Positions 23,701 through 26,700 of a stretch of DNA of 38,383 bases are shown in pieces. The DNA comes from a virus: IMG/VR virus record IMGVR_UViG_3300019468_000034; one strand, written 5' to 3'. The notes beneath the pieces were generated by a model. The model saw only the letters and a program-made list of their open reading frames with translations. It had not been told where the DNA came from and did not search any database. Numbering within the stretch: the stretch's first letter is position 1; every line of letters starts with the position of its first letter. A program made the position numbers and the translations under genes.

Positions 23701-26700
23701 TTTCCCGGAAAAAGGAACTCACAAATTTTAACGGGGTTCCCGTATTGGCAAGTATAAATGGAGAAAAAGGAGATTATTACGTCGTTCTTGAATTTAACAA
23801 AGATGGGAAAATATGGTTCAAAACAGGAATGCCGGTAAGCACTGACTCTGCCAAATCGATCATAAAACAAAAAATAGAGGAAGGGTCCGCCTACCGCCTT
23901 ACGCATAATACGCAGGGACGGACAGGTCTCAACACTTCCTCTATTCGTATTGATACTGTAGCAGAAAAATTAAAAAGTGTCAACAACAAAGAAAAAGACA
24001 CTTTCGACCAACGTGCATGGCACGGAAGCGGCATGGACTTTAACGAGTTCAATTTAGAAAAGGCCCTTACCGGCGCCGGAGATATGGTACATGGCTGGGG
24101 TATTTACACAGCCAAAAACAAAAAGACGGCCCAGGCGTATAAAAAACACGCCCAAAGCAAAGGGCTGCCGTCGTACTTATACGAGGTAGACATTCCCAAA
24201 GACGAAAACCTTCTTGTAGAAGAAAAACGGTACCAAGAACAGACGCCCAAAATACAAGAAAAGCTTGCTAGGACAATATCGGATTTACCGGACAGCCAAC
24301 AAAAGATATTCTGGGAAAAACTGTTACGCAACGAAATGCGGAGATTACCCGAAGAAACCGAAGCATTGTCAGATCTTGATAAGGCGAAAGATAAGGTAAA
24401 ACAATTAGAGGTAGCGTCTAAAGGCCTTGAAAATACCGATAAACCTAAGCTCAAAGAAAAAATAGCCATAAAGCACCTCAAAGCTCTTGGGTATATCGAC
24501 AAACAAATCAAAGACCGGAACTTTATGCAGACGGAGAAAGAAAAGGAAGAAAAAGTCCTTGCCGCTGTAAAAAAAGAAGCCGAAAAAGCCAAAGCGTCGA
24601 TACAAGAAAGAAAAGACAGCATCCTGGAAGCGGCAATTCAAAATCCCAAAGACGCATTAAAAAGAAGTGTTGGCACCGGTAAAGAGATCTACAGGTATTT
24701 ATCAGCATCACTCGACAGCATGGAAGAAGCCTCACAGCAATTAAACAAAAACGGGATTGAAGGCATTTCTTATTACGACAGCAAAGACGGCGATTGCGTC
24801 GTGGTGTTTAGCGATAAGGCGGTAAATATCATCGACCAATATAAACAGCGTGCGTGGCACGGCACACCTTATGATTTCGATACCTTTGATTTATCAGGTA
24901 TAGGCAGCGGTGAAGGAAACCAGGCACATGGATGGGGATTATATTTTGCCCAGAACAGAGAAGTTTCGGAAGCATACAAGGAAATACTCGGAGATAAGGG
25001 GAGTACCGTTGAATTGAACGGGGAGGTATGGACAGTCAACGAATCCGGAGACTGGGAGACAACCGGAAAAACCGCGAAATATGGAGAGGCAATAGGATAC
25101 GCTCTAGATGCTTTAGAAGAACACGGAACAAAAGACGCTGCGATAAATATTCTGCAGAAAGACTTGAAAGAGGGGAGGTTCCGTGGAGCATATATAGCCG
25201 AAGCCCAAAAAGCCGTTAATATTTTACGTCAGGGCGAAGCAAAAGGACATAAAGGCGGCAGGCTACTGGAAGCTGAAATCCCGGACACGGATGTACTATT
25301 AGATGAGCAAAAATTGTTTAAAGAACAACCGGAAAAGGTAAAAAACGCATTAAGTAAGCTTATTTCCAATACAGGCGAAGGCCAATTATCAAGAAGAGCG
25401 TTTAAAAACGCCACCGGGAAAAGCATATACGAAATGCTAAGCAATCTATACGGAGACGATAAAAAGGCATCGCTGAAGCTAAATGAATTCGGGGTTAAGG
25501 GAATTACATATAAAGGCACACAAGATGAACGCTGTTACGTGGTATTCGACGACAAAGCAATTGAAATACGTAACAAATATGATCAAGAAATAAAAGCCTC
25601 ATATAATTCCGCAACAGGTGCCATTCACCTATTCGACGGAGCAGACCAATCTTCATTTGTTCACGAAGCGGCACATATGTATCTTACAGAGATGAGTAAA
25701 ATGGCCGTAGACGAAGCGGCGCCTAAAGGGCTCATGGAAGACTGGAATACAATTCAAAACTGGGCGGCGTATAAACCGGAAGATATAAAAGACTACGAAG
25801 GAACAGCGCGGGAAAAGGAATTTAAATCCTACGCCAAGGCCATTGAAGACGCTCGTAAGAGTGGAGACGTCATAGCCATTCGCGCTGCCGAAGAACGTTG
25901 GATGCAAGAACGATTTGCCCGTGGCTTTGAACGCTATATAGCAGAAGGCAAAGCCCCGACGCAAGCCCTTCAAAGTGCATTCAGAAAATTCAAATCATGG
26001 CTCATCTCGATTTATAGAGATTTAAAAAAACTCGGTAAAGAGCCTCCGGAAGACGTAAAGCGCGTCATGGATCGGATGATTGCAACGGACGACGAAATAG
26101 AAGCATGGGCAAAAGCCAAAGAGTTAAACGCCTGGGACAAGAAGGGCTTTTCCGGGGACTTAACGGGTTCAGAAGGGGACATGATCAAACGCTGGGCCGA
26201 AGACGCCAAGGAAAAAGCCAAGGAACGAGTGCTAAAAGAATTGATGCGGCAAGAGGAAAACCAATGGCGAACGGATTTAGAAAACAGCCTCGAAAAAGAA
26301 CGCATCGATTACGAAAAACACCTGGTCGATGAAAATCCGATATACGGCCAAGAATTGGTTTATAGGGAAACTGGCGAACAATTTAAAGAAGACTACCTAA
26401 GAACAATCGGTTATGACTCGAAAGAATCGTTCGAATCAGCCATTGAAAAGGCAGGTGGTCCGCTAGAAGAACGTTCAAAGGCATTCATGGAAAATCGTCG
26501 TAAAGAATATGAAGAAATGATGCCGACATCCGAAGACTTTAAAAACGCAGCCGACGCAGAGCTTGCATCAACCAACGCTCAAATGAGACTTTCACAATTA
26601 GAAGCTTATGCGATCAAGCGAAAAGTAAACGGGTACGTTGCAGAAGCGGTTAAAGCAATGCGTGAACTTGACGCCCTAGACGGAAAGTCAGAAGAAGAAA

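What the first reader, a model, noticed from the sequence alone, without database searches (positions are those of the whole stretch)
24009..25620. A tandemly duplicated module of about 260 aa lies inside the giant protein
QRAWHGSGMDFNEFNL...HGWGIYTAKN...YEVDIPKDENLLVEEKRYQEQTPK...NGIEGISYYDSKDGDCVVVFSDKAVNIIDQYK (aa 1085-1363) is followed immediately by a second copy, QRAWHGTPYDFDTFDL...HGWGLYFAQN...EAEIPDTDVLLDEQKLFKEQPEK...FGVKGITYKGTQDERCYVVFDDKAIEIRNKYD (aa 1364-1622). The conserved W-H-G ... H-G-W-G-x-Y signature looks catalytic or ligand-binding, but I cannot place it in a named family from memory. A possible third degenerate copy of the GISYYDSKDGDCVVVF element (GVPVLASINGEKGDYYVVLEF) lies just upstream.
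Basis: seen in the sequence. Interest (0 to 1): 0.7.

Follow-up and report, generated by a model that had tools for sequence, protein, structure and literature searches.

The report
Two ADP-ribosyltransferase domains in phage ejection protein
The repeated module is real: it is two copies of a phage ADP-ribosyltransferase domain described in 2017 (ART-PolyVal), sitting in the giant protein a Megasphaera phage probably ejects into its host, so this is a new example of a known arrangement.

Summary
Residues 1085-1363 (m1) and 1364-1609 (m2) of the 3017-aa ORF 20757-29810 are homologous (BLASTP E=3e-24; z=30 against shuffles). No other internal repeat exists.

The giant gene occupies the T7 gp16 position in a temperate podovirus. 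Megasphaera CRISPR spacers match this phage.

Three refinements:
- The copies are different subtypes, not a recent duplication. Their inserts lie in different places, and 65 other family members are closer to m2 than m1 is.
- Eight of 14 related phages carry m1 alone. m2 is an exact one-module indel.
- m2 keeps H-Y-D. m1 has Ser, Asn or Asp at the third position.

The proposed third upstream copy is not supported. That stretch belongs to a separate domain with weak RelE/BECR-like fold matches. No enzyme activity or target has been shown. Interest is low to moderate.

The parts
20757..29810 (+). Giant ORF (3017 aa). It is a polyvalent internal-virion (ejection) protein in the position of T7 gp16.
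   Evidence: ORF list and translation. Gene order is terS, terL, portal, scaffold/protease-like, major capsid, tail tubular A and B, internal virion protein (phrog_418), an 874-aa protein, the giant ORF, then a tail-fibre-like gene. The C-terminal 777 aa are homologous to the largest protein of 40-45 kb podoviruses. In Pseudomonas phage AF this is AF_016, which follows 'internal virion protein A', 'internal virion protein B' and 'structural lysozyme'.
24009..24845 (+). Module m1 (aa 1085-1363). It is an ART-PolyVal-like domain with a variant triad: H1089, Y1117 (plus Y1128), and S1352.
   Evidence: PF18760 scores 24.4 bits, E=5.7e-5, below the 31.2-bit cut-off. It is homologous to m2 at E=3e-24. 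It departs from positions that are 96-99% conserved in the family: A1107 for Glu, S1352 for Asp, G1092 for Pro, L1104 for Gly, M1110 for Gln and T1118 for Phe. It is present in all 14 IMG/VR relatives. dN/dS is 0.16 against relative L008.
23997..24164 (+). m1 block A (aa 1081-1136), holding W-H-G-S and G-W-G-I-Y-T-A.
   Evidence: block-A HMM, 67.7 bits.
24168..24299 (+). m1 block B (aa 1138-1181), LYEVDIP..., which directly follows block A.
24300..24671 (+). m1 insert (aa 1182-1305), rich in Lys and Glu, lying between blocks B and C.
   Evidence: Only 2 of 96 family members have this layout.
24672..24845 (+). m1 block C (aa 1306-1363), G-I-E-G-I-S-Y-Y-D...C-V-V-V-F-S-D.
   Evidence: The residue after VVVF is Ser, Asn or Asp in different relatives.
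24846..25583 (+). Module m2 (aa 1364-1609). It is an ART-PolyVal domain with the full H-Y-D triad: H1368, Y1396 (plus Y1407), and D1598. E1386 is also kept.
25002..25253 (+). m2 insert (aa 1416-1499), a beta-hairpin plus three helices between blocks A and B.
   Evidence: Secondary structure of the model. dN/dS is 0.02. This layout is the usual one in the family, seen in 94 of 96 members.
25662..25676 (+). The only HExxH motif in the protein (HEAAH, aa 1636-1640), just after the last ART module. It may be a zincin-type metallopeptidase site.
   Evidence: Motif search. It is conserved in all 14 relatives and always follows '...KY[RD]|QEIKASYNS.TGAIHLFD.ADQSSF'. No Pfam model matched, so the peptidase assignment is inference only.
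23454..24008 (+). It is a separate, swappable domain with weak RelE/BECR-like fold matches.
21645..21716 (+). Hydrophobic Gly/Ala-rich segment (aa 297-320). A second lies at nt 22179-22235 (aa 475-493).
   Evidence: Kyte-Doolittle scan with a 19-residue window, maxima 1.74 and 1.53.

Best explanation
The region encodes two adjacent ADP-ribosyltransferase (ART) domains of the ART-PolyVal family. They lie in the middle of a giant polyvalent protein that takes the place of the largest internal-virion (ejection) protein of a T7-like, temperate podovirus of Megasphaera.

Proposed mechanism:
1. The protein is packaged in the capsid as part of the pre-ejectosome.
2. It is expelled into the cell at the start of infection.
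3. m2, and possibly m1, bind NAD+ through the His / Tyr / Tyr pocket and transfer ADP-ribose to a host macromolecule. This would disarm or redirect the host before any phage gene is expressed, as phage T4 Alt does.

m2 has the full H-Y-D triad and is an optional cassette. m1 is the constant module of the lineage. It has Ser, Asn or Asp at the third triad position and Ala at the family's invariant Glu. It may therefore be a weaker, altered or non-catalytic NAD-binding module.

What is shown and what is inferred:
- Shown: homology of the two modules, family membership of m2, the predicted ART fold of m2, synteny, and the presence/absence polymorphism of m2.
- Inferred: packaging and ejection, NAD+ use, transferase activity, the identity of the target, and any processing at the HExxH site.
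For: Family and fold:
- m2 passes the Pfam cut-off for PF18760 when scanned alone.
- Most of the 120 listed homologs of m2 carry PF18760. Some also carry the polyvalent-protein domains PF18798 and PF18819; PF18812 appears among the homologs of m1.
- His, Tyr and the Tyr 11 residues later are invariant, and Asp after VVF is 99% conserved.
- Iyer et al. 2017 (PMC5512222) define this family by H in strand 1, Y in strand 2 and D in strand 5. They report one to twelve copies per protein and predict delivery with the DNA.

Ejection-protein context:
- Gene order matches the T7 internal-protein block.
- The homolog in phage AF follows the annotated internal virion proteins.
- The best structural match is gp27 of cyanophage A4, a component of the solved pre-ejectosome.

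Selection and host:
- Both modules are under purifying selection: dN/dS is 0.16 for m1 and 0.02-0.3 for parts of m2.
- Spacers in a Megasphaera type II CRISPR array match the window.
Against: - No activity, substrate or virion proteomics exists for this protein. I found no biochemical study of any ART-PolyVal member in the library searched.
- The whole protein scores only 26.8 bits against PF18760, below the cut-off. m1 alone scores 24.4 bits.
- The position that aligns with the catalytic Glu of PARP1 is Cys in both modules and Asn in most of the family. The role of the conserved Asp is taken from the literature.
- m2 itself departs from the wider family at some near-invariant positions: L1504 for Tyr, Q1518 for Asp and G1587 for Asp.
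- m1 is the module every relative keeps, yet it lacks the third triad residue. The conserved function of the region therefore may not be catalysis.
Confidence: 0.72

Rival explanations
1. The modules are structural only. They would be ART-fold building blocks of the pre-ejectosome or ejection conduit with no enzymatic role.
For: - m1, the copy kept by every relative, lacks the third triad residue. That residue is Ser, Asn or Asp among close relatives, and the invariant Glu of the family is Ala in m1.
- The best structural match is part of the ordered outer layer of the A4 pre-ejectosome.
Against: - m2 keeps every residue of the H-Y-D triad plus the second Tyr and the Glu.
- m2 is dispensable for virion formation, since 8 of 14 relatives lack it. 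A structural brick is unlikely to be optional.
- His and both Tyr are also kept in m1 in all relatives.
Confidence: 0.13
2. The domains act on NAD+ itself or on nucleic acids rather than on host proteins. They could be NADases, or DarT-like DNA or Tpt1-like RNA modifiers, for example to counter NAD+-dependent defence.
For: - The canonical catalytic Glu position is Cys or Asn, which leaves the chemistry open.
- Reviews note that some phage ARTs may be NADases (PMC9503650).
Against: - Iyer et al. place the family in a clade related to protein-modifying ARTs.
- There is no sequence match to DarT, Tpt1 or RES models in Pfam.
Confidence: 0.12
3. The pair arose by a recent in-place tandem duplication and the first copy is decaying.
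For: The copies are adjacent and in frame, and both begin with the same QRAWHG. m1 departs from family-invariant residues.
Against: - Core identity is only 41%, and 65 of 95 other family members are closer to m2 than m1 is.
- The inserts lie at different positions.
- m1 is under purifying selection (dN/dS 0.16) and is the copy that all relatives keep.
- The m2 region has the highest nucleotide identity in the gene among five relatives, 0.93-0.97 against a baseline of 0.89. This fits a recently spread cassette.
Confidence: 0.03

Closest known systems
ART-PolyVal (Pfam PF18760), the ART domain of polyvalent proteins in the Tox-ART-HYD2 clade. The prototype is in the virion RNA polymerase of Roseovarius Plymouth podovirus 1 (CBX87992.1). 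A Pseudomonas aeruginosa prophage protein has 12 copies (WP_023121221.1). Source: Iyer et al. 2017, PMC5512222.
   Same: - The same signature (Y/W-H-G-S/T ... G-x-G-x-Y-F-A ... VVF-D) and the same H-Y-D triad in m2.
- The same kind of host protein: a giant, multidomain, virion-associated protein.
- More than one copy per protein.
- Relatives of this gene carry MuF_C, PBECR3 or LPD3 next to the ART, which are the other hallmark polyvalent-protein domains.
   Different: - m1 has Ser in place of the triad Asp, and Ala in place of the invariant Glu.
- m1 has a rare insert layout, seen in 2 of 96 members.
- The carrier here is a gp16-position ejection protein of a temperate T7-like podovirus of a Negativicute, not an N4-type RNA polymerase or a conjugative-element protein.
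Phage T4 Alt, a head-packaged and injected ADP-ribosyltransferase.
   Same: The working model is the same: an ART carried in the virion and delivered with the DNA, which modifies host proteins such as RNA polymerase at the start of infection (summarised in PMC5512222).
   Different: Alt belongs to the R-S-E (Alt/VIP2) clade, is a separate small protein, and comes from a myovirus. No sequence or Pfam relationship was detected here.
PARP catalytic domains and diphtheria toxin (H-Y-E ARTs).
   Different: The catalytic Glu position is Cys here and Asn in most of the family. A conserved Asp lies five residues further along the same strand. There are large helical inserts, and no sequence-level match to any PDB chain.
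gp27 of cyanophage A4 / A-4L (PDB 9k3a chain B), the largest protein of the solved pre-ejectosome (PMC12002296).

Membership tests
ART-PolyVal (PF18760) / Tox-ART-HYD2 clade | Sequence match to the Pfam model above its gathering score of 31.2 bits. | tested here: inconclusive
   m2 scanned alone scores 36.3 bits and passes. m1 alone scores 24.4 bits and the whole protein 26.8 bits, so both fail. Only profile positions 10-67 of 140 are matched, because inserts split the domain.
ART-PolyVal (PF18760) / Tox-ART-HYD2 clade | ADP-ribosyltransferase fold. | tested here: met
   [not shown]
ART-PolyVal (PF18760) / Tox-ART-HYD2 clade | His in strand 1. | tested here: met
   H1089 in m1 and H1368 in m2. 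The column is invariant in 84 sequences and lies in the first strand of the model.
ART-PolyVal (PF18760) / Tox-ART-HYD2 clade | Tyr in strand 2. | tested here: met
   Y1117 in m1 and Y1396 in m2, invariant in the family. The second Tyr 11 residues on (Y1128 / Y1407) is also invariant.
ART-PolyVal (PF18760) / Tox-ART-HYD2 clade | Asp in strand 5. | tested here: inconclusive
   Taking the 99%-conserved Asp after VVF as this residue, m2 has it (D1598) and m1 does not (S1352). Relatives of m1 have Ser, Asn or Asp there. The mapping of 'strand 5 Asp' to this column is my inference from the alignment. It was not checked on coordinates.
ART-PolyVal (PF18760) / Tox-ART-HYD2 clade | NAD+-dependent transfer of ADP-ribose. 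| not testable with these tools
   This needs biochemistry. No published assay of any family member was found.
Polyvalent protein (Iyer et al. 2017) | A large protein of a phage or conjugative element that combines several unrelated effector domains. | tested here: met
   The 3017-aa protein holds two ART modules, a separate upstream domain and an HExxH motif. Orthologs carry MuF_C, PBECR3 or LPD3 in the upstream slot, all above the Pfam cut-offs.
Podovirus internal virion / ejection protein (T7 gp16 position) | Position in the gene order: after tail tubular B and the smaller internal proteins, before the tail fibre. | tested here: met
   PHROG assignments of the neighbouring genes. The homolog in phage AF follows the annotated internal virion proteins A and B and a structural lysozyme.
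Podovirus internal virion / ejection protein (T7 gp16 position) | Sequence homology to T7 gp16 itself. | tested here: not met
   The Pfam scans of the giant protein, whole and in segments, returned no gp16 family. PHROGs returned only phrog_9880, of unknown function. The assignment rests on position only.
Podovirus internal virion / ejection protein (T7 gp16 position) | Presence in the virion and ejection into the cell. | not testable with these tools
   This needs virion proteomics or cryo-EM.

The most novel reading that the evidence does not exclude
The giant ejection protein may be a platform with two hot-swappable effector slots on either side of a constant, non-canonical ART-like module (m1, with an H-Y-S/N triad).
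- The upstream slot holds a RelE/BECR-like domain, PBECR3, MuF_C or LPD3.
- The downstream slot is either empty or holds a canonical H-Y-D ART (m2).
- m1 would then be a hub that binds NAD+ or regulates the neighbouring domains, rather than an ordinary transferase.
- Cassettes would be exchanged by recombination among phages. Exchange would also involve a 1.1-kb relic of this gene in the Megasphaera chromosome, which carries the same slot with different fillings.
Probability: 0.2. Interest if true: 0.55.

Novelty: new member of a known kind. Interest (0 to 1): 0.28.

Why it matters
- It gives a named family and a testable chemistry to a 1.6-kb stretch of an otherwise unannotated 9-kb gene in a phage of Megasphaera, a human oral and gut bacterium.
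- It offers a natural experiment. Closely related phages differ by exactly one ART module and by the domain in the neighbouring slot. Comparing them on the same hosts could show what these injected enzymes are for.
- No member of this widespread family appears to have been characterised biochemically. A small temperate podovirus whose likely host genus is indicated by CRISPR spacers could be a workable system.
- It does not change what is known about the family. Domain type, multi-copy arrangement and predicted delivery route were all described in 2017.

Tried and rejected
- Megablast of the giant gene against 50,697 phage records gave no match.
- A profile search of PDB sequences with the family alignment gave only spurious gp41 hits.
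Against PARP1 it was weak, E=0.0039, but in the expected register.
- The 'third copy' was rejected on shuffle statistics and profile comparison.
- I asked whether the 5' half of m1 is an unusually conserved recombination arm. It is not: nucleotide identity there is at the gene's baseline, 0.88-0.91.
- A possible extra ART-like module upstream of m1 in relative L023 was not significant, hhalign probability 0.4%.
- The antisense ORF 24104..24622 (172 aa) was dismissed as mechanical. It lies inside a + strand frame that is under purifying selection.
- A GTDB species-representative scan with the host-borne fragment found nothing.
- Rfam found nothing in the host intergenic repeats.
- PADLOC found nothing for the modules or for the three host genes next to the fragment.
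- The Aravind 2015 ART review could not be opened.
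Full report
**1. The observation**

The + strand ORF 20757..29810 encodes a 3017-aa protein. The second starts at aa 1364 (nt 24846). Its quoted sequence ends at aa 1609 (nt 25583), not at aa 1622 (nt 25620).

The two segments align with BLASTP E=3e-24 at 27% identity. The Smith-Waterman score is 236. One thousand shuffles gave mean 38.4, sd 6.5 and maximum 75, so z=30.5. A segment-wise self-comparison of the whole protein found no other significant repeat.

The similarity is concentrated in three blocks:
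- Block A, 45% identity: W-H-G ... G-W-G-x-Y.
- Block B: LYEVDIP in m1, LLEAEIP in m2.
- Block C, 44% identity: G-I-x-G-I-x-Y ... VVF-x-D.

The large inserts lie in different places.

**2. What the module is**

Pfam places it in PF18760, ART-PolyVal, 'ADP-ribosyltransferase in polyvalent proteins'.
- m2 scanned alone scores 36.3 bits, above the cut-off of 31.2.
- m1 scores 24.4 bits and the whole protein 26.8 bits. Both are below the cut-off.
- Only the first half of the profile is matched, because the inserts split the domain.

A search of 5.8 billion proteins with m2 found 136 relatives. Most of the 120 listed carry PF18760, and some also carry PF18798 or PF18819.

Foldseek against predicted viral structures returns proteins named 'ART-PolyVal-like' or 'PolyVal ADP-ribosyltransferase', with E down to 3e-19. 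No PDB chain is detectable by sequence.

In an 84-sequence alignment the invariant or nearly invariant polar residues are:
- the His of W-H-G
- the Glu of G-E-G (99%)
- the Tyr of G-x-G-x-Y-F-A
- a second Tyr 11 residues later
- the Asp after VVF (99%)

His aligns with H862 and the two Tyr with Y896 and Y907. N/C-Y-V-V-F-D aligns with E988-Y-I-V-Y-D993.

Iyer et al. 2017 (PMC5512222) define this family by H in strand 1, Y in strand 2 and D in strand 5. They place it in the Tox-ART-HYD2 clade, related to PARPs and diphtheria toxin. [quoted passage not shown] The family and the multi-copy arrangement are therefore already described.

**3. Context**

The neighbouring genes are terminase small and large subunits, portal, a scaffold/protease-like protein, major capsid protein, tail tubular proteins A and B, and an internal virion protein (phrog_418). 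An 874-aa protein with a weak lysozyme-like N-terminus follows, then the giant ORF, then a tail-fibre-like gene. This is the T7-type order, and the giant ORF takes the place of gp16.

Its C-terminal 777 aa have homologs in 48 podovirus records of about 40-45 kb. In Pseudomonas phage AF the homolog is a 2213-aa protein that directly follows 'internal virion protein A', 'internal virion protein B' and 'structural lysozyme'. Two hydrophobic Gly/Ala-rich segments lie at aa 297-320 and 475-493.

The window also encodes a tyrosine integrase, an ImmA/IrrE-type peptidase, dUTPase, a holin and an amidase. The phage is therefore temperate. The window, at 38.4 kb, is about a whole genome.

**4. Host**

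Relatives of m1 in the protein database turned out to lie on long bacterial contigs from human metagenomes. A flanking gene is 95% identical to one in Megasphaera micronuciformis F0359.

These contigs carry a type II CRISPR locus (Cas9-Cas1-Cas2). Spacers from its array match the window (repeat unit):
- window 16056-16086, 97% identity
- window 34794-34828, 97% identity
- window 27512-27543, 100% identity
- window 21981-22014, 91% identity

Megasphaera is therefore the host.

**5. Comparison with related phages**

A metagenomic contig in GenBank (L008) is 87.7% identical in nucleotides and has the same tandem pair. m1 is 90% identical in protein and m2 about 95%. dN/dS is 0.16 for m1 and 0.02-0.3 for parts of m2. 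Both are under purifying selection.

IMG/VR holds 14 relatives.
- Six have m1 plus m2.
- Eight have m1 only.
- The junction is exact. In m1-only phages '...NIIDKY[RD]' runs straight into 'QEIKASYNS.TGAIHLFD.ADQSSFVHEAAHMY'. In tandem phages the same sequence follows the end of m2.

m2 is therefore a one-module in-frame indel, and m1 is the constant element.

Among five tandem phages the m2 region has the highest nucleotide identity of the whole gene, 0.93-0.97 against a baseline of 0.89. This fits a cassette that spread recently.

In the concatenated core blocks m1 and m2 are 41% identical. Sixty-five of 95 other family members are closer to m2 than m1 is, the best at 64%. The nearest relative of m1 is P0121 at 55%. 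The m2 layout, with the insert between A and B, is the usual one (94 of 96). The m1 layout is rare (2 of 96). The pair is better described as two subtypes joined by recombination than as a recent duplication.

**6. Are both copies likely to be active?**

m2 keeps H1368, E1386, Y1396, Y1407 and D1598.

m1 keeps H1089, Y1117 and Y1128. It differs at several positions that are 96-99% conserved in the family:
- A1107 for the Glu
- S1352 for the Asp
- G1092 for Pro
- L1104 for Gly
- M1110 for Gln
- T1118 for Phe

In close relatives the residue after VVVF is Ser, Asn or Asp, so this position is not constrained in m1.

Two cautions apply:
- m2 also departs from the wider family at a few positions (L1504, Q1518, G1587).
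- H-Y-x PARPs without the Glu can still be mono-transferases. This is established knowledge of the PARP family and was not tested here.

I conclude that m2 is the better candidate for a canonical enzyme. m1 may be weaker, altered or non-catalytic, but it is clearly maintained by selection.

**7. The proposed third copy**

The stretch GVPVLASINGEKGDYYVVLEF lies in a separate domain, aa ~900-1084. Its similarity to the modules is at chance level:
- Smith-Waterman z was 1.9 or lower.
- hhalign probability was 0.15-0.5%.

In related phages and in host-borne fragments the same slot holds MuF_C, PBECR3 or LPD3, all above the Pfam cut-offs. These are hallmark domains of polyvalent proteins. The slot fillings assort independently of the presence of m2.

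**8. Mechanism**

The best-supported reading is as follows. The giant protein is packaged with the other internal proteins. It is expelled into the cell at infection. There the ART module or modules use NAD+ to modify a host target, as T4 Alt does.

- Shown: homology of the modules, family membership, the predicted fold, synteny and the module polymorphism.
- Inferred: packaging, ejection, catalysis, the target, and any self-processing at the single HEAAH motif (aa 1636-1640). That motif is conserved in all relatives but has no Pfam support.

I found no biochemical study of any ART-PolyVal member.

**9. Verdict**

The module nevertheless belongs to a family named in 2017, and multiple copies in giant phage proteins were described then. 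It is a new member of a known kind.

The refinements are modest additions rather than a new kind of system:
- m1 is constant and non-canonical, while m2 is optional and canonical.
- The effector slot next to m1 is swappable.
- The host is Megasphaera.
- An ART-like domain in the solved A4 pre-ejectosome appears to have gone unremarked.

Noticed in passing
window 23075-24197 (aa 774-1147 of the giant protein); host loci L005 9878-10997, L001 9878-11200, L007 8398-9517: Megasphaera chromosomes from human metagenomes carry a 1.1-kb fragment of this phage gene (83.6% nucleotide identity). It ends inside m1, right after 'YEVDIP'. It lies between a PrpR-like regulator and three small genes, about 7 kb from the CRISPR array. 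The site is empty in M. micronuciformis F0359 (L009). Different strains carry different middle domains (LPD3, MuF_C, PBECR3 or the window type) between the same two arms. The reading frame is broken at both ends in L005, and the called start is the phage's own Leu815 TTG codon, so it is probably not a working gene. Gene conversion with resident or infecting phages would explain the pattern, but this was not tested.
   Followed up: partly
L005 9412-9775, 10993-11320 and 3264-3631: The host fragment is flanked by a direct repeat of about 200 bp (L005 9578-9775 and 10993-11190). The repeat belongs to a set of tandem and dispersed units. By eye, each unit looks like a promoter, a GC-rich structured RNA (shared motif CACCGGATGTGTCGGG...GGCACTGGCACCGGTTGCC) and a terminator. 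One copy sits just after the CRISPR array. Rfam has no match at E<=0.1. In L006 the repeats appear to have mediated a 7.5-kb tandem duplication.
   Followed up: partly
window 16056-16086, 21981-22014, 27512-27543, 34794-34828: These are protospacers matched by spacers of a Megasphaera type II CRISPR array (repeat ATTATACCCTTGAGAGAGATAATAGGGAACTACAAC) at 91-100% identity. They identify the host. One protospacer (27512-27543) and a weaker one (21981-22014) lie inside the giant gene.
   Followed up: yes
[not shown]
   Followed up: partly
window 25662-25676 (aa 1636-1640): This is the single HExxH motif (HEAAH) of the protein, in a stretch conserved in all 14 relatives directly after the last ART module. 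It may be the zincin-like peptidase often found beside ARTs in polyvalent proteins, but no Pfam model matched it.
   Followed up: partly
window 34899-35960 (-), 37064-37531 (-), 36541-37053 (-): There is a tyrosine integrase and an ImmA/IrrE-type M78 peptidase, with an unassigned 170-aa ORF between them. Together they look like a lysogeny module, so this T7-like podovirus is temperate. No phage RNA polymerase gene turned up among the ORFs I scanned, but the early region was not searched for one.
   Followed up: partly
window 20757-21480 (aa 1-240) and 23565-23870 (aa ~937-1037): Among five close relatives, nucleotide identity falls to 0.67-0.81 at the N-terminus of the giant protein and to 0.73-0.78 in the upstream domain. 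The gene-wide baseline is 0.89. These are local hot spots of divergence.
   Followed up: no
L023, giant ORF aa ~1095-1275: One relative has an extra 180-aa domain between MuF_C and m1, with LYHGG...GMFFSGS...VKVEIDEDDVMDLW. It resembles the ART blocks by eye but is not significant by hhalign (probability 0.4%).
   Followed up: partly
window 2587-3393: A 268-aa protein matches the rolling-circle replication initiator family REP_ORF2-G2P (E=1e-11), which is an unusual replication gene for a T7-like podovirus.
   Followed up: no
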